Source: a phage. Taken from it: a stretch of 64,000 bases of DNA. The notes beneath the pieces were generated by a model. It saw only the letters and a program-made list of their open reading frames with translations, did no database searches and had not been told where the DNA came from. Positions 27,605 through 32,510 of the stretch are shown here, one piece after another. The stretch lies in NCBI GenBank assembly GCA_014685065.1, contig GCA_014685065.1_3930.1. One strand, 5' to 3'. The translations under genes were made by a program, and so were the position numbers. The number at the start of each line of letters is the position of its first letter. Position 1 is the first letter of the stretch.

Positions 27605-27690
27605 CGAGTATGAAAGAGGTCTGAAGTTGTGCCGCTAACTCAACTCCGTGGAATTTGTTACGGTCTTCAGTTGACACCAGCGGTCTTTCA
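27605..27690 (-). repeat. structured spacer element (CUGAAGACCG family, copy e)
   Basis: Closing inverted repeat AGAGGTC...GACCTCT; internal CTGAAG...CTTCAG stem; contains ACGGTCTTCAG box shared with the other spacers. Confidence 0.4.
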
Positions 27691-27694
27691 CTTG

Positions 27695-27771
27695 ACCTCT
27701 GAATTGGTGCTGCTCACAGGACTCGAACCTGCATTTCCATCCTTACAAGGGATGTGTAATAGCCAATTATA
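27695..27771 (-). tRNA. tRNA-Thr (anticodon UGU)
   Basis: Acceptor GCTGCTT/GAGCAGC, anticodon stem CATCC/GGATG, loop CTTGTAA, CCA encoded. Confidence 0.65.
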
Positions 27772-27777
27772 CGAAAG

Positions 27778-27852
27778 CAGCATTGTTTGGAGCATCCAGA
27801 GGGAATCGAACCCTCAACCTCAGTTTGGAAGACTGTAATTTTCCCGTTTAAA
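27778..27852 (-). tRNA. tRNA-Gly (anticodon UCC)
   Basis: Acceptor GCATCCA/TGGATGC, anticodon loop CTTCCAA, T-arm GAGGG-TTCGATT-CCCTC. Confidence 0.6.
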
Positions 27853-27858
27853 CTATGG

Positions 27859-27934
27859 ATGCACTAATTGGTGGAGAAGCAGGGAATTGAACCCTGTACT
27901 TAAGTTTGCAAAACTTATGTTTTAACCATGTAAA
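27859..27934 (-). tRNA. tRNA-Ala (anticodon UGC)
   Basis: Anticodon stem TAAGT/ACTTA, loop TTTGCAA, T-arm CAGGG-TTCAATT-CCCTG, CCA encoded. Confidence 0.6.
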
Positions 27935-27940
27935 CTACAT

Positions 27941-28016
27941 CCCCAATGTTTGGTACAGGTGGAGGGAATTGAACCCATCGTCTTACTGATTAAGAGTCAG
28001 CCGCATAACCATTTTG
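27941..28016 (-). tRNA. tRNA-Lys (anticodon CUU)
   Basis: Acceptor GCAGGTG/CACCTGT, anticodon stem GCTGA/TCAGT, loop CTCTTAA, CCA encoded. Confidence 0.55.
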
Positions 28017-28023
28017 CTACACC

Positions 28024-28100
28024 TGCATTAATTTGGTACACCTAGAGAGATTCGAACTCACACTGAGCAGATTCTAAGTCTGCTGCCTCTACCAATTGGG
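28024..28100 (-). tRNA. tRNA with anticodon UAG (Leu-type), class I architecture
   Basis: Acceptor GCACCTA/TAGGTGT, A73, anticodon stem GCAGA/TCTGC, loop CTTAGAA, T-loop TTCGAAT. Confidence 0.45.
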
Positions 28101-28356
28101 CTATAGGTGCATTAAATCTTTTTAGAGAACTTCTAAGAACCTAAGCAACAAGGTTCCACAACAAGCTGTAATAACCTTAGAAGCCCTCTAAAAAGACCTA
28201 ATTTGGTCTTTGCATAGTCTTGTTTAATCCGGTGACTAGAACCTTTGGAGAGCTTGATATTATCTCTTCTCCGTGACACCTACTAGGTGCTTTACTGTGC
28301 GTGTACGACAATACACGAGGGATACCAAAGCAACATCCGAATGAAGCTTGGCTTTA

Positions 28357-28446
28357 AATCTTATTAGGCGGTAAGTAAAGGAGTCGAACCCTCACCGTAT
28401 CTCTACAGTGGCAACTGTTTTCAAGACAGTTTGGCTACCATTAGCC
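28357..28446 (-). tRNA. tRNA-Ser (anticodon UGA), class II
   Basis: ~90 nt; acceptor GGTAGGT/ACTTACC, perfect anticodon stem ACTGT/ACAGT, loop CTTGAAA, long variable arm; only CC of CCA encoded. Confidence 0.55.
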
Positions 28447-28459
28447 GCTACCTACCCCT

Positions 28460-28542
28460 AATAAGACTTTGGCATGGGACGGAGGAGTTGAACCACTTTG
28501 AAACGGTTTTGGAGGCCGTTGCTCATGCCTTAGAGTCTTAAC
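28460..28542 (-). tRNA. tRNA-like gene, possible Trp (anticodon CCA); atypical D-region and T-stem
   Basis: Perfect acceptor GTGGGAC/GTCCCAT with CCA; loop CTCCAAA; D-loop over-long and T-stem with mismatches, may be degenerate. Confidence 0.35.
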
Positions 28543-28684
28543 ATCGTCCCACACTATAATTCGAAGCTTACCGTATTTTCACAACACTGTAAAGCCCCTT
28601 CTCAGATTATTTACATGTTCTGGAAAACATGAGATACAGACCACCTCCTTACACGGAGACCCGATAAGGTCGTCTAAGCAATCT

Positions 28685-28761
28685 GCTAACTATTTGGCAC
28701 ACCCTACAGGATTCGAACCTGTAACTAACGATTTAGAAGACCGTTGCTCTATCCAATTGAA
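28685..28761 (-). tRNA. tRNA-Arg (anticodon UCU)
   Basis: Acceptor GCACCCT/AGGGTGT, anticodon stem ACGGT/ATCGT, loop CTTCTAA; D-arm near-identical to tRNA-Arg(ACG). Confidence 0.65.
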
Positions 28762-29008
28762 CTAAGGGTGCATTAATCTTTAAAGACTCTCTTAGAAAGC
28801 CCTTAAAGATGCCCACCTTATTAATCATACCGTGGGCGAGTACGCCAAATTCTTTGATGAGGGATTGGAAGACCTCACTGGTGTTTAGCCTATCAAGCTA
28901 CTGCCAGAAAAACATTGTCGTTTGCATTTATTTTAAATTTGCAAAATAGACGCTACGCAACGAAAACTAAGGTTACTATAAAGTGGTCACATCTCAATGT
29001 CAACAACT

Positions 29009-29084
29009 TTATTGAAATTGGTACTGTGAGAAGGATTCGAACCTTCTGCCTTTCGGTTATCAGCCGAATGCACATCCATATGTG
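29009..29084 (-). tRNA. tRNA-Ile (anticodon GAU)
   Basis: Acceptor GCTGTGA/TCACAGT, D-stem GCAC/GTGC, anticodon stem TTCGG/CCGAA, loop CTGATAA, CCA encoded. Confidence 0.65.
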
Positions 29085-29087
29085 CTT

Positions 29088-29573
29088 TCACAGCATTGTT
29101 ACCCCTTCGTGTACCTCTCTGTGGCAATTTGCACACAGTAATACACACTTATCAACTTCAGACTTCATTACCTCTATAGAGAAGTGTTTTTGTCCTACTG
29201 TGAAGTCCTTTGTATTAGGGTCTAAGTGGTGAAACTCTAAAGCCTTTATGCACTTATTGTATCCACAAATTGAGCAACAACCACCTTTGTAATCAACTAA
29301 AACCCTCTTAAGTTTGTCACGAGACTTTTTAACGTGTTGTGACTTCGCTTTCTTTTCTTCATCGGGGTTTTTGTATTGTTTCAGAATACCATTTGAAATA
29401 CATTCATCACAATACTTTCTTGATTTTGGTGTTTGTTTTCCACATGAATGACAAGAGCCTTCTTGTCTTCTTTTTGGATGACTCTTGTTGTTTACCCTTG
29501 CAGCACAAGAGCGTGAACAATATTTTCCGCCTTTAACGGCTTTGTTGTCACAATCTTTATTAGCACAAAACAT
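29088..29573 (-). CDS. HNH homing endonuclease with N-terminal Cys-rich zinc-finger repeats
   Basis: C-terminal HNH motif (CCSICGYN...LEFHHLDP...CVLLCANCHREVH); four CxxC-type pairs N-terminally; ORF-track start at 29732 would overlap tRNA-Met so start set at MFCANKDC. Confidence 0.7.
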   Translation of the reverse strand: MFCANKDCDNKAVKGGKYCSRSCAARVNNKSHPKRRQEGSCHSCGKQTPKSRKYCDECISNGILKQYKNPDEEKKAKSQHVKKSRDKLKRVLVDYKGGCCSICGYNKCIKALEFHHLDPNTKDFTVGQKHFSIEVMKSEVDKCVLLCANCHREVHEGVTML

Positions 29574-29589
29574 AATATCACCAACGAAT

Positions 29590-29666
29590 TGGAGGTTCAG
29601 ATGGGAATCGAACCCACATTCATAGGGCTTATGAGACCCCTGCATTACCTTATCTGCGACTGAACC
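29590..29666 (-). tRNA. tRNA-Met (anticodon CAU; elongator vs initiator vs Ile2 unresolved)
   Basis: Acceptor GGTTCAG/CTGAACC, anticodon stem GGGGT/GCCCT with G-U ends, loop CTCATAA, T-loop TTCGATT. Confidence 0.6.
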
Positions 29667-29670
29667 ATAT

Positions 29671-29746
29671 TGGTAGAAGTGGAGGGATTCGAACCCATCG
29701 CCTGTCAGATTAAAAGTCTGCCGCATCACCATTCTGCTACACTTCC
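29671..29746 (-). tRNA. tRNA-Lys (anticodon UUU)
   Basis: Anticodon loop CTTTTAA, T-arm similar to tRNA-Lys(CUU), CCA encoded. Confidence 0.6.
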
Positions 29747-29752
29747 ATTAAA

Positions 29753-29894
29753 ATTATCTTTGTAGATAAGCTATCCAGACTTGCTTAAGGTCTGTAGCGA
29801 TGTGCCTTGTTGGGTTTAAATCTAGAATTTACCCTTTCACTCTTTGTGGTCGCATACTCACAGGTAAGCTTAATAACTTATCTACAAAGATAAT
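29753..29894 (-). repeat. perfect 18-bp inverted repeat pair flanking a 106-bp core (hairpin RNA or MITE-like insertion)
   Basis: ATTATCTTTGTAGATAAG at 29753-29770 and exact reverse complement at 29877-29894; core holds CAGAC-TTGCTTAAG-GTCTG hairpin. Confidence 0.5.
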
Positions 29895-29895
29895 T

Positions 29896-30028
29896 ACCAG
29901 ACCGTTGTTTATCATCTTAAGTGCTACCATTACACCAACTCGACATCTGCCGAGTGAAGGAATCGAACCTTCGCCTTTTCTTTACCGGAGAAATAGATTG
30001 TTTAAGTTTTGCTGTAAACGGTCTTCTG
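29896..30028 (-). repeat. spacer element copy a (CCAGACC...GGTCTTCTG family) containing tRNA-like T-arm and D-arm in permuted order
   Basis: Closing stem AGACCGTT/AACGGTCT; internal GGCGAAGG-TTCGATT-CCTTC T-arm-like hairpin followed by GAGTTGGTGTAATGGTAGCAC D-arm-like segment. Confidence 0.4.
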
Positions 30029-30040
30029 TAAATTTGTTGA

Positions 30041-30116
30041 GCCAGACCAAGTTTTAAATTTTCAAAATTAAATTGGCTTGAAATTTCATACATTCTTGCT
30101 GTATTTGGTCTTCTGC
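30041..30116 (-). repeat. spacer element copy b (CCAGACC...GGTCTTCTG family)
   Basis: GCCAGACCAAG...TTGGTCTTCTG closing inverted repeat; conserved ACAGCAAG box in minus sense. Confidence 0.4.
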
Positions 30117-30202
30117 TCCTTTAAAGAATACTCGTAAGAACCCTTTAAGGGAGGGGCTAAATAGCCCTCTCAAAACATCATCTTGAAATACTTATTATAA
30201 TT

Positions 30203-30279
30203 TGGCGGTTACGAAGGGATTTGAACCCTCATCATCTCCCGTGACAGGGGAGTATTTTAACCAGTTAAACTACATAACC
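30203..30279 (-). tRNA. tRNA-Asp (anticodon GUC)
   Basis: Anticodon stem CTCCC/GGGAG, loop CTGTCAC, T-arm GAGGG-TTCAAAT-CCCTT, CCA encoded. Confidence 0.65.
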
Positions 30280-30285
30280 TTTATT

Positions 30286-30373
30286 TGGTGTGCCGTGTAG
30301 GAGTCGAACCTACCGAGTCTCAATGACAAGGGATTTACAGTCCCCACCGCTACCATCTACGGGATAACGACAC
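30286..30373 (-). tRNA. tRNA-Tyr (anticodon GUA), class II
   Basis: 88 nt; acceptor GTGTCGT/ACGGCAC, anticodon stem GGGGA/TCCCT, loop CTGTAAA, long variable arm, T-arm GTAGG-TTCGACT-CCTAC. Confidence 0.6.
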
Positions 30374-30442
30374 ATTTAATTTCTATTCAGGCTAAGGACT
30401 TGCACCTTACAAATCGGTGAGCAATCGCTTCTCTCCTAAATT

Positions 30443-30519
30443 TGGCGGTTAGTCAGGGATTCGAACCCTGTGCCATTCGCTTAACAGGCGACCGCACATA
30501 CCTTATGTGCTTCCTAACC
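30443..30519 (-). tRNA. tRNA-Asn (anticodon GUU)
   Basis: D-stem GCAC/GTGC, anticodon loop CTGTTAA, T-arm CAGGG-TTCGAAT-CCCTG, CCA encoded. Confidence 0.6.
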
Positions 30520-30529
30520 TTAATACATT

Positions 30530-30591
30530 GCCAGACCGTGTTTTTTCTTTTATCCGCAAAAAGTATTTTGTTGCTGAATACGGTCTTCTGC
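30530..30591 (-). repeat. spacer element copy c (CCAGACC...GGTCTTCTG family)
   Basis: GCCAGACCGTG...ATACGGTCTTCTG closing inverted repeat with ~45-nt structured loop. Confidence 0.4.
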
Positions 30592-30596
30592 AAAAT

Positions 30597-30672
30597 TGGA
30601 GGCGGGTGCAGGAGTCGAACCTGCCGATACCATGCTAATGAGACATGTGAGACGCCCTTTCTCTATACCCGC
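30597..30672 (-). tRNA. second CAU-anticodon tRNA (Met/fMet/Ile2 candidate)
   Basis: D-stem GAGA/TCTC, anticodon stem CATGT/GCATG, loop CTCATTA (unusual U at position 37), T-arm GCAGG-TTCGACT-CCTGC. Confidence 0.5.
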
Positions 30673-30683
30673 AATTCTTAATG

Positions 30684-30759
30684 ACCAGACCAAATCTCTT
30701 CTTTGTCCGATTTACCTTCAGATGAATAAGATTAAGTTTGCTGTAATTGGTCTTCTGTC
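30684..30759 (-). repeat. spacer element copy d (CCAGACC...GGTCTTCTG family)
   Basis: GACCAGACCAAA...ATTGGTCTTCTG closing inverted repeat; conserved ACAGCAAACTTAA box in minus sense. Confidence 0.4.
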
Positions 30760-30764
30760 AAAAC

Positions 30765-30842
30765 TGGCGTTCCAGAAGGGATTTGAACCCTCAAATATCC
30801 ACTTTGAAAGAGTGGTGACTTTACCATTTTGTCTACTGGAAC
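30765..30842 (-). tRNA. tRNA-Glu (anticodon UUC)
   Basis: Perfect acceptor GTTCCAG/CTGGAAC and anticodon stem CCACT/AGTGG, loop CTTTCAA, CCA encoded. Confidence 0.65.
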
Positions 30843-30954: not shown

Positions 30955-30986
30955 CACTTTAACATTATTTTTTAGTGGTTGTCAAG
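30955..30986 (-). promoter_or_regulatory. candidate sigma70-type promoter for the tRNA operon
   Basis: Minus-sense TTGACA-N17-TTAAAG with AT-rich upstream tract, ~25 nt before tRNA-Pro 5' end; AACCACT/AGTGGTT inverted repeat overlaps it. Confidence 0.35.
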
Positions 30987-31042
30987 AACTTTTTTAAAAT
31001 ATTTTTCAGTATCTTAGAAAAGCTCTCATTTCGTTTCTATGT

Positions 31043-31082
31043 AGAACATATTAAAGGGTATCAAACACATTGTCAATACCCT
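31043..31082. terminator. hairpin AAAGGGTAT...ATACCCTTT (terminator-like on plus strand)
   Basis: 9-bp perfect arms, T-run follows on plus strand; lies just downstream of the vWA gene stop. Confidence 0.3.
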
Positions 31083-31094
31083 TTTTAAAACTTT

Positions 31095-32510
31095 TTACCA
31101 GATGTAACGGTCAATCATTACTGCTTTGAGCATTACGCTGATTGGGTCAAACTTCTCACCACCAAGCAGAGCTTTTAAAGTGGCTGGAGAGAACCCTGAT
31201 ACCATTGCTACACCATTATCCTTAACAGATACTTCGCAAGTACCATTACGGTTTGCTAAGTACCAGAATACCAGTTGTGGCATTTTGTATCCAGCTTTTT
31301 TGTACTTACTACGAATCGCTTCAAAGTTTGTACGACCATTAGCTCCATCAACCTGATTGAACTCCATATCAGAGAAGATAATAAGCTTACTTGGCATATC
31401 TTTCTGAGTCAAGTTGTTTCTCTTACCTGTTTCAAGAATGCGGTCAAAAGCTGCTTGTAAGTTAGTTGAGCCATATTCAACGTGTCGCATCACCTGACGA
31501 TGACGGTTTCGTAAATCACCACTCAGTTCGATGAAGTGAGGGTTTGTCGAATAAACCATCAACTCATTCTTAAAGCAACCTGTATTGCGTTCTGCTACAT
31601 ACAAGGCAAGTGATACACCAATATCCAGAGCAGTAATGGAGCCAAAATTCACCCAAGACATTGAACTTGATACATCAGACATACACAAGATGTTTTCACC
31701 TTCTGCCATCCAGTTTGGTAGTGCTTTCCACTGCTCATTAGCAACATCTGCATTACCATACTTGACAGATTTAATCACATCGTATGGGTAAACAGCACCA
31801 GCGTTAATCTTAGTCTCACCTTTTGATAAGGACTCGATGTAAGCTTTGTAACGCTCTCCATCTTTACGGTTAAACAGTTTTTGGTAACGTGCAGCAGCAA
31901 GTGAAGGAATCTTACTGTAGTCAATCTTACCAAACTCATTAGCAGAGATTTTTTGCTCAACTGTATCAGATAGTGCAGACAACAGTGTGCGATACTCTTT
32001 CTCACTCAAGTTTGCAAACTTGCAGAAACGTTTTACAAACTGTTTGTGACGTGGTTTTACTCGTGGTAACCACTTAGCTGCTAAACCTGCTGTTGCAGGG
32101 TCTAGTAAAGCTGCTTCTAAATGTTTGAAGGCATCTGTCTCGAAACGAGTACCTACAAAGATTTTGAAGTCATCAAAGCGACCAAGCTCTGCAATCTTAT
32201 CCATAATGCGAAGAACCTGCGTAGGCTCTAAAACTTTATCTTCAATCGCTTGAAGTAAAACAGTTCGGAAAGCTTTACGCTCACCCATACCTTCTCGTAC
32301 ATCTCGCATATGCAGTAAAATACGAACTGCAACATCAACATCCTCATGCAAAGCTTTGTAGAACAAGTCTGGTAAGATTTCTACATTGCTACGGCTGGAA
32401 CCAGCAGCTTTGTAAAAGTCCACAAGAGCAGACATTGATGAAGTATGGTTTACAGCACCATTTTCAGTTCGACCTGCATGAAGGTGCGCATGTTTAAATA
32501 ATTCGCTCAT
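31095..32510 (-). CDS. von Willebrand factor A (vWA) domain protein with helical N-terminal domain
   Basis: 471 aa; MIDAS-like DxSxS motif (MSDVSSSMS) and downstream Thr/Asp positions (GSTNL, IIFSDMEF) typical of vWA. Confidence 0.55.
   Translation of the reverse strand: MSELFKHAHLHAGRTENGAVNHTSSMSALVDFYKAAGSSRSNVEILPDLFYKALHEDVDVAVRILLHMRDVREGMGERKAFRTVLLQAIEDKVLEPTQVLRIMDKIAELGRFDDFKIFVGTRFETDAFKHLEAALLDPATAGLAAKWLPRVKPRHKQFVKRFCKFANLSEKEYRTLLSALSDTVEQKISANEFGKIDYSKIPSLAAARYQKLFNRKDGERYKAYIESLSKGETKINAGAVYPYDVIKSVKYGNADVANEQWKALPNWMAEGENILCMSDVSSSMSWVNFGSITALDIGVSLALYVAERNTGCFKNELMVYSTNPHFIELSGDLRNRHRQVMRHVEYGSTNLQAAFDRILETGKRNNLTQKDMPSKLIIFSDMEFNQVDGANGRTNFEAIRSKYKKAGYKMPQLVFWYLANRNGTCEVSVKDNGVAMVSGFSPATLKALLGGEKFDPISVMLKAVMIDRYIW

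What the first reader, a model, noticed from the sequence alone, without database searches (positions are those of the whole stretch)
27605..30759. Five-copy family of structured spacer elements between tRNA genes, bounded by CCAGACC...GGTCTTC(T/A)G inverted repeats
Copies at about 27605-27690, 29896-30028, 30041-30116, 30530-30591 and 30684-30759 share a closing stem (minus sense CAGAAGACC(G/A)...(T/C)GGTCTGG) and an internal ACAGCAA(A)ACTTAA-like box. They are not tRNAs and are too conserved to be random spacer. They could be small stable RNAs (like the species 1 and 2 RNAs in the T4 tRNA region, as I recall), processing hairpins or regulatory structures.
Basis: seen in the sequence. Interest (0 to 1): 0.6.

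Follow-up and report, generated by a model that had tools for sequence, protein, structure and literature searches.

The report
Phage Y-RNA-like partners of Ro60-like protein
Four small structured RNAs scattered among the tRNA genes of this Felix O1-like phage look like "Y RNAs", partner RNAs for the Ro60-like protein encoded just upstream; one mimics a tRNA, and the same RNA signature sits beside this protein in very different phages.

Summary
The fifth (27610-27704) is a different conserved hairpin.

Each true copy has:
- an outer 4-bp helix that covaries;
- an AGA/G internal loop;
- a 7-bp helix AGACCRN/NYGGUCU;
- an invariant CAGCAA box.

The gene directly upstream on the same strand (31095-32510; Pfam DUF2828+DUF7788) models with pLDDT 90. 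Its 12 best PDB matches are all Ro60/TROVE proteins.

The longest copy has the YrlA layout: closing stem, V hairpin, T arm, acceptor-like hairpin, D arm.

The signature AGR-stem / WW-CAGCAA ... stem-YCU-G recurs beside homologues of this protein in phages of mycobacteria, Listeria and Campylobacter and in metagenomic phage contigs. I counted 79 hits on the gene strand, 2 on the other strand and 0-7 in shuffles.

Covariance models built only from those distant phages recover exactly these four elements in the window (65.5, 27.9, 26.4 and 20.7 bits).

Best reading: Y RNA-like partners of a phage Ro60-like protein. Binding is inferred, not shown. A 2024 preprint noted the Ro60-like protein in phage Bas63 and only guessed that some tRNA genes might be Y RNAs. 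I rate this a new variant of a known kind.

The parts
30682..30760 (-). Y-like RNA, short form (79 nt), between tRNA-Glu and tRNA-Met. Outer helix UGAC/GUCA, AGA/G loop, inner helix AGACCAA/UUGGUCU, CAGCAA box at 30743-30738.
   Evidence: Exact pattern match, fold, conserved in all Felix-like loci. Independent model R1 scores 26.4 bits, E 1.6e-4.
30528..30593 (-). Y-like RNA, short form (66 nt), between tRNA-Met and tRNA-Asn. Outer helix UUGC/GCAA, inner helix AGACCGU/ACGGUCU, CAGCAA box at 30576-30571. The interior UUUGCGGAUAAAAGAAAA resembles an element of mycobacteriophage Gabriela.
   Evidence: R1 scores 27.9 bits, E 6.5e-5. The outer helix switches UUGC/GCAA <-> UUAC/GUAA among orthologues. 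Interior resemblance seen by eye.
30039..30118 (-). Y-like RNA, short form (80 nt). Outer helix GAGC/GCUC, inner helix AGACCAA/UUGGUCU, CAGCAA box at 30101-30096, internal hairpin UUUCAA-GCCAAUUUAAU-UUUGAAA.
   Evidence: R1 scores 20.7 bits, E 6e-3. A similar internal hairpin occurs in distant locus L096 9345-9411.
29894..30031 (-). Y-like RNA, long tRNA-mimic form (138 nt). Outer helix UUAC/GUAA, inner helix AGACCGUU/AACGGUCU, CAGCAA box at 30014-30009.
   Evidence: Model R2, built only from distant phages, scores 65.5 bits, E 1e-12, full length; this is the best hit in the window.
29921..29993 (-). tRNA-like domain inside the long form, in permuted order: V/anticodon-like hairpin UUUCU-CCGGUAA-AGAAA; T arm GAAGG-UUCGAUU-CCUUC; acceptor-like hairpin ACUCGGC-AGAU-GUCGAGU; UG; D arm GUGU-AAUGGUA-GCAC.
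   Evidence: Read from sequence. The Rfam tRNA model partly matches (22 bits, model positions 7-64). The acceptor-like hairpin covaries among Felix-like variants (ACUCGGC/GUCGAGU, ACACG/CGUGU, ACCCUUC/GAAGGGU). The T arm is 100% paired with 3 pairs changed on both sides.
31095..32510 (-). Ro60-like protein gene (471 aa; HEAT-repeat ring plus vWA/MIDAS), directly upstream of the tRNA/Y-RNA array on the same strand.
   Evidence: Pfam DUF2828+DUF7788. PHROG 850 'RNA-binding protein'. AlphaFold pLDDT 90.2. Top 12 Foldseek PDB hits are all Ro60/TROVE, E 4e-8 to 3e-6, TM 0.47-0.66, full length. DxSxS is invariant.
30956..31084 (-). Terminator-like hairpin after the Ro60-like gene (31084-31053) and two sigma-70-like promoter matches (31076-31048, 30985-30956) ahead of tRNA-Pro. 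These may be the start of the array transcript.
   Evidence: Consensus scan only. The number of promoter-like sites in the region does not exceed shuffles, so this is weak.
27610..27704 (-). The finding's 'copy 1': a conserved 95-nt imperfect long hairpin between tRNA-Val and tRNA-Thr. It is not a family member.
   Evidence: Fold -30.7 kcal/mol, z -3.0. Conserved in 32 Felix-like hits. No CAGCAA box. No hit with R1 or R2.

Best explanation
The four elements are small non-coding RNAs of the Y RNA type. They are transcribed with the tRNA array and released by the processing of the flanking tRNAs. They serve as partner RNAs of the phage's Ro60-like protein, which is encoded immediately upstream.

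The conserved module is the likely protein-binding site. It consists of a terminal helix starting AGR and ending YCU, an unpaired 3' G, and the single-stranded CAGCAA box right after the 5' strand.

The variable interiors are effector modules. One is a tRNA mimic of the YrlA type, in which the Ro-binding stem takes the place of the anticodon stem. The others are short hairpin or A-rich modules.

By analogy with Ro60/Y RNA particles, the RNAs would gate or tether the ring protein to other factors, such as PNPase or tRNA-recognising enzymes. This probably serves RNA or tRNA surveillance or counter-defence during infection.

Shown here: sequence family, helices, tRNA-like architecture, Ro60-like fold, genomic linkage.
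Inferred: expression as discrete RNAs, binding to the protein, downstream function.
For: 1. Structure. The outer helix is 100% paired in 23 distinct variants, with 3 of 4 pairs changed on both sides. The inner helix is 7 bp, with positions 6 and 7 covarying. The covariation score is 0.43 against 0.16 in shuffles, with 0/500 shuffles reaching it. G.U pairs (GGGC/GCUC, GAGC/GUUC) exist only in the tRNA-sense strand.

2. Protein. The upstream ORF has a Ro60 fold. All 12 top PDB hits are Ro60/TROVE, including Thermus phage phiLo Ro60, Xenopus Ro60 and Deinococcus Rsr. Mycobacteriophage homologues (33% identity, full length) are annotated 'Ro-like RNA binding protein'.

3. Layout. The long copy has the published YrlA order 5' stem - V - T - acceptor-like hairpin - D - 3' stem (PMC4201824; sequence).

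4. Linkage. In 75 distant viral contigs encoding 38-47% identical proteins, the stem + CAGCAA + 3' G signature occurs 79 times on the gene's strand, 2 times on the other strand and 0-7 times in shuffles. 51 of 75 loci carry it, and in 42 it lies within 500 nt of the gene. Several of these loci have no tRNA within 5 kb.

5. Breadth. The same signature sits beside the gene in mycobacteriophages Gabriela and Kingsolomon, Listeria phage LP-083-2 and Campylobacter phage CP8.

6. Independent models. R1 (28 short elements, none Felix-like) ranks the three short copies 1-3 in the whole window. R2 (11 tRNA-like elements, none Felix-like) gives the long copy 65.5 bits, E 1e-12.

7. Rfam. The YrlA model gives significant sub-threshold hits to the distant tRNA-like members: 39.2, 38.9, 37.9 and 36.7 bits, E 4e-5 to 2e-4.

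Against: - No expression or binding data exist for these RNAs; everything about the RNP is inferred from linkage and analogy.
- Rfam's YrlA model does not hit the window's long copy at all (E<=10).
- The published Ro60-binding motif GNCGAAN0-1G (or CGAA) is absent; CAGCAA stands in its place.
- The protein matches no TROVE Pfam model, so it is a distant structural relative whose RNA-binding mode could differ.
- The distant-locus elements used for the statistics were selected by requiring stem complementarity. Their stems are not independent evidence of covariation; only the strand and shuffle controls are.
- I did not verify by sequence that Bas63 gp130 is the orthologue of this ORF. That rests on synteny and genus only.
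Confidence: 0.72

Rival explanations
1. They are processing or spacer structures of the polycistronic tRNA transcript. The hairpins would direct RNase III/E/P cleavage or block exonucleases, with no function of their own.
For: They sit in tRNA-sized slots 4-12 nt from flanking tRNAs. Other spacers of the array are also strongly structured. The Felix-specific outer helix with the AGA/G loop could be a processing determinant.
Against: An invariant single-stranded CAGCAA box and conserved interiors are not needed for a processing hairpin. The same RNAs lie directly beside the Ro60-like gene in loci where no tRNA was found within 5 kb (L039, L041, L043, L046, L051). Mycobacteriophages carry three in a row with no adjacent tRNAs.
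Confidence: 0.1
2. They act independently of the Ro60-like protein. For example, they could be tRNA-mimic or decoy RNAs that titrate host tRNA-targeting defence nucleases or tRNA enzymes, or they could bind another phage or host protein.
For: The tRNA-like domain of the long copy keeps U8, A14, G18G19 and the T-loop UUCGA. Phage tRNA arrays are commonly linked to escape from anticodon nucleases (general knowledge). Published YrlA RNAs are substrates of tRNA-modifying enzymes (PMC4201824).
Against: Three of the four copies have no tRNA-like part, yet share the terminal module. That module, not the interior, tracks the Ro60-like gene across phyla of hosts.
Confidence: 0.1
3. They are decayed tRNA genes, remnants of tandem tRNAs with no selected function. 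One GenBank record annotates the long copy this way, as a 131-nt tRNA-Thr(GGT).
For: The order anticodon-like arm - T arm - acceptor 3' strand - short loop - acceptor 5' strand - D arm is exactly a junction between two tandem tRNAs. Model R2 also scores real tandem tRNA junctions at 19-26 bits. This may well be the evolutionary origin.
Against: ARAGORN, with or without introns, and Rfam do not call them tRNAs. The acceptor-like hairpin is closed by a 4-nt loop. Helices covary among orthologues, so selection is ongoing. The same layout with the CAGCAA module is kept in phages of unrelated hosts.
Confidence: 0.04
4. They are miniature mobile DNA elements bounded by terminal inverted repeats.
For: The ends are inverted repeats, CCAGACC...GGTCTTCTG, and there are several copies per genome.
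Against: There are no target-site duplications. The copies sit at fixed syntenic positions in about 35 relatives. Strand bias is extreme, 79 to 2. G.U pairs would be A.C mismatches at the DNA level or on the other strand. No copies occur elsewhere in the 64-kb window.
Confidence: 0.02

Closest known systems
YrlA (Rfam RF02553), the tRNA-like bacterial Y RNA bound by Rsr/Ro60 (Chen et al. 2014, PMC4201824)
   Same: The long copy has the same module order: terminal stem, conserved 5' motif just inside it, V hairpin, T arm, acceptor-like hairpin, D arm. It is encoded close to a Ro60-type gene on the same strand and is accompanied by shorter partner RNAs, as YrlB accompanies YrlA in Salmonella.
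   Different: The 5' motif is CAGCAA, not GNCGAAN0-1G. The Rfam model does not detect it. The partner protein is a DUF2828-type structural relative, not a Pfam-TROVE Ro60. The RNAs are interleaved with tRNA genes, and an extra 4-bp outer helix with an AGA/G loop is present.
Yrl1/Yrl2 of Thermus phage phiLo with phiRo60 (PMC12135203)
   Same: Phage-encoded Ro60 homologue with two small stem-closed RNAs next to the gene. The phiLo protein is the top structural match of the window's protein.
   Different: The phiLo RNAs were picked by a CGAA motif and lie upstream of the gene. For them, binding was shown by EMSA and a cryo-EM structure of the phiRo60-Yrl2 complex was determined. Nothing is shown experimentally here.
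Metazoan Y RNAs / Ro60 RNP
   Same: 5' and 3' ends pair into a conserved helix interrupted by bulged nucleotides. This helix is the protein-binding site, and the interiors are variable.
   Different: No sequence similarity. The strand polarity of the conserved helix differs: GGUC is on the 5' strand in Y RNAs, while here AGACC is on the 5' strand.
Bas63 gp130 (PhageMaP preprint, 10.1101/2024.10.10.617714)
   Same: Same genus and same synteny: a Ro60-like gene directly upstream of the tRNA stretch. The authors suggested partner Y RNAs exist there.
   Different: They proposed that some annotated tRNA genes might be the Y RNAs. The candidates found here are the unannotated non-tRNA elements between the tRNAs.
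   Same: Small stable RNAs encoded within a phage tRNA cluster (from memory).
   Different: Not compared here. No evidence of relatedness was sought or found.

Membership tests
YrlA / bacterial Y RNA (Rfam RF02553; Chen et al. 2014) | Scores at or above the Rfam gathering threshold (69 bits) | tested here: not met
   No YrlA hit at E<=10 on the window's long copy. Distant relatives of the family score 25-39 bits.
YrlA / bacterial Y RNA (Rfam RF02553; Chen et al. 2014) | Module order: terminal stem - V - T arm - acceptor-like stem-loop - D arm | tested here: met
   Copy 29894-30031 only. The three short copies lack it, in the way YrlB does.
YrlA / bacterial Y RNA (Rfam RF02553; Chen et al. 2014) | GNCGAAN0-1G (CGAA) motif near the 5' end | tested here: not met
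   The equivalent position carries an invariant CAGCAA.
YrlA / bacterial Y RNA (Rfam RF02553; Chen et al. 2014) | Encoded within about 4 kb of a Ro60 orthologue, on the same strand | tested here: met
   The elements lie 0.3-1.2 kb downstream of ORF 31095-32510 on the same strand. The ORF has a Ro60 fold.
YrlA / bacterial Y RNA (Rfam RF02553; Chen et al. 2014) | Physically bound by Ro60/Rsr | not testable with these tools
   Needs RIP/CLIP or EMSA.
   AGACCRN/NYGGUCU-G in all four copies. Copy 1 (27610-27704) has a 3' U and is not a member.
   Four copies. Absent from copy 1.
   R1: 27.9, 26.4 and 20.7 bits, ranks 1-3 in 64 kb. R2: 65.5 bits, E 1e-12 for the long copy. Copy 1 is not hit.
Ro60 / TROVE protein family (for the upstream ORF) | HEAT-repeat ring plus C-terminal vWA domain with a MIDAS motif | tested here: met
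   AlphaFold pLDDT 90. Full-length Foldseek matches to 9kop, 9l5y, 2i91, 1yvp and 2nvo. D279-x-S281-x-S283 is invariant in 61 homologues.
Ro60 / TROVE protein family (for the upstream ORF) | Match to the Pfam TROVE model or sequence-level similarity to solved Ro60 | tested here: not met
   Pfam gives only DUF2828 and DUF7788. A profile against PDB sequences gives Ro60 at E 1.1, and only over the MIDAS region.
tRNA | Cloverleaf with an open acceptor stem, detected by ARAGORN or Rfam RF00005 | tested here: not met
   No call with or without introns. RF00005 scores 22 bits, below its 29-bit threshold, and covers only the anticodon-like and T arms.

The most novel reading that the evidence does not exclude
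Several hundred phages of Gram-negative, Gram-positive and actinobacterial hosts carry a homologue of this Ro60-like protein (710 records in the phage collection). They include Felix O1-like, Listeria, Campylobacter, Vibrio and cluster-L-type mycobacteriophages; the RNA signature itself was confirmed in mycobacteriophages, a Listeria phage, a Campylobacter phage and metagenomic contigs, and was not checked in Vibrio, Staphylococcus or Enterococcus phages. In this reading they share one previously undescribed modular RNP system. A DUF2828-type Ro60-like ring protein would bind a universal RNA handle (AGR-helix / CAGCAA / YCU-G). That handle carries interchangeable cargo modules: tRNA mimics in two topologies, and conserved hairpin classes shared between E. 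coli phages and mycobacteriophages. The RNP would be the active agent of an anti-defence or tRNA-protection function, such as the reported neutralisation of the Ppl defence system by Bas63 gp130.
Probability: 0.3. Interest if true: 0.8.

Novelty: new variant of a known kind. Interest (0 to 1): 0.62.

Why it matters
Ro60/Y RNA particles are studied from bacteria to humans, where Ro60 is a lupus and Sjogren autoantigen. Their roles in phages are barely explored.

Here the partner-RNA candidates of a Ro60-like protein are pinned down to the nucleotide. A preprint has already tied that protein genetically to phage counter-defence in a tractable E. coli phage.

The candidates come with a simple, testable binding signature that differs from the textbook CGAA motif and that current Rfam models miss.

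The signature immediately allows annotation of similar RNAs in several hundred phage genomes, including phages used for therapy and biocontrol (Felix O1 and Listeria P100-like phages). It would also correct mis-annotations such as the 131-nt 'tRNA-Thr'.

The location inside a tRNA array and the tandem-tRNA-junction layout of the mimic also offer a concrete picture of how tRNA-like Y RNAs may arise.

Tried and rejected
- **Circularly permuted functional tRNA needing cut-and-ligate maturation** (first idea on seeing T arm - acceptor 3' - acceptor 5' - D arm). Dropped. The layout is exactly the known YrlA design. The closing helix carries the family handle rather than a bulge-helix-bulge motif. 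No RNA ligase was looked for or seen in the ORFs I scanned.
- **ARAGORN with introns allowed** on 29701-30800. It gives no call for any element.
- **Rfam at gathering and E-value thresholds** on the window. It finds no Y RNA or YrlA.
- **Single-sequence AlphaFold** of the upstream protein was useless at pLDDT 45. The run with an alignment was needed.
- **First loose motif scan** (7-bp stem with one G.U anywhere within 150 nt of a box) had too high a background: 236, 167 and about 110. It was replaced by a stricter definition.
- **MAFFT alignment of tRNA-like members across phages** misaligns the acceptor-like and D arms by one column. The pair counts there (64% and 63%) therefore understate the structure. 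Only the T arm count is reliable.
- **K-turn reading of the AGA/G loop.** Rejected by inspection: there are no tandem G.A pairs.
- **Supplementary tables of Chen et al. 2014** (list of 22 phages) are not held. I could not check whether any Felix-like phage was listed.
- **The 2020 Annual Review on bacterial Ro60** is not held.

Full report
**What the window is.** The region is 92-98% identical to many Felix O1-like phages (Felixounavirus). A minus-strand array of 26 tRNA genes runs from 30929 down to 25438.

**Checking the observation.** On the minus (tRNA-sense) strand, CAGAAGACC-N30-60-GGTCTGG occurs three times against zero in 100 shuffles. A fourth, longer element has the same ends. With the outer helix included the elements span:
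- 30682-30760 (79 nt)
- 30528-30593 (66 nt)
- 30039-30118 (80 nt)
- 29894-30031 (138 nt)

Folding and inspection show a two-tier closure. There is an outer 4-bp helix (UGAC/GUCA, UUGC/GCAA, GAGC/GCUC, UUAC/GUAA). Next comes an asymmetric loop, 5' AGA opposite 3' G. Then comes a 7-bp helix AGACCRN/NYGGUCU. This is followed after 2-3 nt by an invariant CAGCAA.

All four elements sit at the same slots in about 35 Felix-like loci.

I made an alignment of the 23 distinct end combinations, with 5' and 3' ends joined by an artificial linker. On it the outer helix is 100% paired, with three of its four pairs changed on both sides. Positions 6 and 7 of the inner helix switch between A-U/A-U and G-C/U-A. 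The covariation score is 0.43 against 0.16 in shuffles (0/500), and sliding the partners destroys pairing. The G.U variants (GGGC/GCUC, GAGC/GUUC) pair only in the tRNA-sense transcript.

The finding's first copy (spacer 27610-27704) is something else. It is a 95-nt long hairpin, well conserved in relatives. It has no CAGCAA box, it ends in U rather than G, and neither family model hits it.

**The long copy.** In RNA sense, 29894-30031 reads:
- closing helices, then the CAGCAA box;
- hairpin UUUCU-CCGGUAA-AGAAA;
- T arm GAAGG-UUCGAUU-CCUUC;
- hairpin ACUCGGC-AGAU-GUCGAGU;
- UG;
- D arm GUGU-AAUGGUA-GCAC;
- an A-rich linker and the closing helix.

The acceptor-like hairpin is 7 bp with one G.U. 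U8, A14, G18G19, A21 and the T-loop UUCGA are all in place.

ARAGORN does not call it a tRNA, even with introns allowed. Rfam's tRNA model matches only the anticodon-like and T arms, at 22 bits. One GenBank record (REP5) annotates the orthologue as a 131-nt tRNA-Thr(GGT), which I regard as an artefact.

Among Felix-like variants the acceptor-like hairpin is rebuilt with different sequences: ACUCGGC/GUCGAGU, ACACG/CGUGU, ACCCUUC/GAAGGGU.

**The neighbour.** The ORF immediately upstream on the same strand (31095-32510, 471 aa) is Felix O1 ORF42, annotated 'RNA-binding protein'. Database matches are Pfam DUF2828+DUF7788, PHROG 850 'RNA-binding protein' and no NCBIfam family.

A single-sequence model was poor. 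With a 61-sequence alignment the model reaches pLDDT 90.2 and pTM 0.89.

Foldseek against the PDB returns Ro60/TROVE structures as the 12 best hits: 9kop and 9l5y (Thermus phage phiLo Ro60), 2i91/1yvp/1yvr (Xenopus Ro60), 2nvo (Deinococcus Rsr) and recent Ro60 cryo-EM entries. E-values run from 4e-8 to 3e-6 and TM from 0.47 to 0.66 over the full length. The next hits are isolated vWA domains.

The MIDAS residues D279, S281 and S283 are invariant. At sequence level only a marginal Ro60 hit over that motif appears (E 1.1).

**What is published.**
- Chen et al. 2014 (PMC4201824) describe YrlA. It has a terminal stem carrying a GNCGAAN0-1G motif, then V, T, an acceptor-like stem-loop and D, and it is encoded within about 4 kb of Ro60 on the same strand. 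They found it in 254 bacteria and 22 phages annotated as having a TROVE protein. This is the layout of the long copy.
- The phiLo paper (PMC12135203) shows a phage Ro60 binding two adjacent Y-like RNAs chosen by a CGAA motif.
- I found no paper on DUF2828 function or on small RNAs of Felix O1-like phages.

**Does the RNA go with the protein elsewhere?** The protein family is large: 2585 clusters in the metagenomic protein database and 710 phage records. These include Mycobacterium (annotated 'Ro-like RNA binding protein', 33% identical over the full length), Vibrio, Listeria, Staphylococcus, Campylobacter, Enterococcus and Bacillus phages.

I fetched 75 viral contigs encoding 38-47% identical proteins. 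Many have tRNA arrays right after the gene.

A scan for T arm - closed acceptor hairpin - D arm found permuted tRNA-like modules in several contigs. Reading their flanks showed the same design as in the window: a 7-bp terminal helix of varying sequence, then WW-CAGCAA, and after the 3' strand a G.

I then applied a strict definition: box [AT]N-C[AC]GCAA, a 7-bp helix with at most one G.U ending 0-1 nt before it, a partner strand 35-150 nt downstream, and a following G. Results:
- 79 hits on the gene's strand, 2 on the opposite strand, and 0-7 in ten shuffles;
- 51 of 75 loci have at least one hit;
- in 42 loci a hit lies within 500 nt of the gene.

Both short (51-68 nt) and long forms occur. 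Several loci that carry an element directly after the gene had no tRNA within 5 kb (L039, L041, L043, L046, L051).

The signature is also present next to the gene in named phages:
- three elements, the middle one tRNA-like, after the Ro-like gene of mycobacteriophages Gabriela and Kingsolomon;
- three before the gene of Listeria phage LP-083-2, which also has an RtcB-like ligase 1.3 kb downstream;
- two between the tRNA array and the gene of Campylobacter phage CP8.

Across all of these the helix starts AGR or UGG and ends YCU or CCA, followed by G.

**Independent membership tests.** Model R1 was built from 28 short elements of distant loci only, with just the terminal helix annotated. I ran it over the whole window on both strands without filters. 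It ranks the three short copies first, second and third (27.9 bits, E 6.5e-5; 26.4, 1.6e-4; 20.7, 6e-3). The 5' part of the long copy is fourth.

Model R2 was built from 11 tRNA-like elements of distant loci, including the two mycobacteriophages. It gives the long copy 65.5 bits, E 1e-12, full length. Real tandem tRNA junctions score at most 26.5 bits.

Over the 79 distant loci, R2 finds 25 hits of at least 37 bits, all on the gene's strand.

Rfam's YrlA model (gathering score 69) gives sub-threshold but significant hits to several distant members: 39.2, 38.9, 37.9 and 36.7 bits, E 4e-5 to 2e-4. It gives none to the window's copy.

**Interpretation.** The four elements are best explained as Y RNA-like partners of the phage's Ro60-like protein.

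The part that tracks the protein across hosts is the terminal helix, its 3' G and the CAGCAA box just inside it. This occupies the position of the Ro60-binding region of known Y RNAs. I therefore infer that it is the binding handle.

The interiors differ and fall into classes that seem to recur between very distant phages:
- the interior of 30528-30593 (UUUGCGGAUAAAAGAAAA) resembles Gabriela's first element;
- the hairpin of 30039-30118 resembles one in L096.

These two resemblances were seen by eye and were not tested statistically.

The tRNA-mimic layout equals the junction of two tandem tRNA genes. This suggests an origin inside tRNA arrays.

Release from the array transcript by RNase P cleavage of the downstream tRNA and 3' trimming back to the outer helix is plausible but untested. 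The promoter and terminator matches upstream of tRNA-Pro are weak.

Function is inferred by analogy only. Candidates are gating or tethering of the ring protein to PNPase or tRNA-recognising factors, RNA surveillance, and the Ppl counter-defence reported for Bas63 gp130.

**Rivals.** Pure processing hairpins, protein-independent decoys, decayed tRNAs and miniature mobile elements were considered. Each fails to explain the invariant single-stranded box together with the strand-specific, cross-phylum linkage to the protein gene. The tRNA-remnant idea probably describes the origin.

**Novelty.** Phage Ro60 homologues with Y-like RNAs are known, and the Ro60-like nature of the Felixounavirus protein has been noted. 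Four things appear new in the literature I could search:
- the identification of the actual candidate RNAs, which are not the annotated tRNAs;
- their two-tier closing structure;
- a CAGCAA-type handle in place of the CGAA motif;
- the breadth of this handle across DUF2828-encoding phages.

I could not see the supplementary phage list of Chen et al. 2014, so some mycobacteriophage members may already have been listed there as YrlA-like.

Noticed in passing
window 27610-27704 (-): A conserved 95-nt imperfect long hairpin lies between tRNA-Val and tRNA-Thr (MFE -30.7 kcal/mol, z -3.0). It is present in all Felix-like loci examined. Its closing helix AGAGGUC/GACCUCU starts and ends like the family handle, but the box is GUGAAA and the 3' base is U. 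Its function is unknown.
   Followed up: partly
window 29752-29895: A 23-nt inverted repeat (96% complementary) encloses 98 nt between the long Y-like RNA and tRNA-Lys(UUU). This is a large stem-closed spacer of another kind.
   Followed up: no
window 28111-28202 and 28776-28810: Two further strong spacer hairpins (27-nt arms at 85%; 17-nt arms at 82%) lie next to tRNA-Leu(UAG) and tRNA-Arg(UCU). They share CUUUAAAG/CUUAGAA-like words.
   Followed up: no
window 28356-28368 / 28457-28469: A 13-nt inverted repeat flanks tRNA-Ser(UGA) and would extend its acceptor stem in the precursor.
   Followed up: no
window 28476-28550 (-): A weak tRNA-Sec-model hit (21 bits) lies in a spacer that ARAGORN leaves empty. 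It may be a decayed tRNA.
   Followed up: no
window 29088-29732 (-): A 214-aa ORF between tRNA-Ile and tRNA-Met overlaps the tRNA-Met and tRNA-Lys coordinates at its listed 5' end. It has no Pfam hit. The syntenic Felix O1 ORF44 is annotated as an HNH endonuclease, so it is probably a homing endonuclease insertion that varies between relatives.
   Followed up: no
L080 4732-4835: An element with the CAGCAA handle encloses a D arm, anticodon arm and T arm in normal order. Here the handle replaces the acceptor stem rather than the anticodon stem, giving a second tRNA-mimic topology in the same family.
   Followed up: no
L113 (Listeria phage LP-083-2) 1429-1980 and 5815-7026: A ROOL RNA hit just below threshold (87.4 bits against 99.1; E 2e-16) lies among tRNAs directly upstream of the three CAGCAA elements and the Ro-like gene. 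An RtcB-like RNA ligase gene lies 1.3 kb downstream. This is reminiscent of the Salmonella rsr-yrlBA-rtcBA operon.
   Followed up: no
L003 (Escherichia phage REP5) 2656-2786: The GenBank record annotates the orthologue of the long Y-like RNA as a 131-nt tRNA-Thr(GGT). This is probably a mis-annotation by a tRNA finder run with introns allowed.
   Followed up: partly
L050 10696-10922: A group I intron (71.5 bits, above threshold) lies in a distant DUF2828-encoding viral contig.
   Followed up: no
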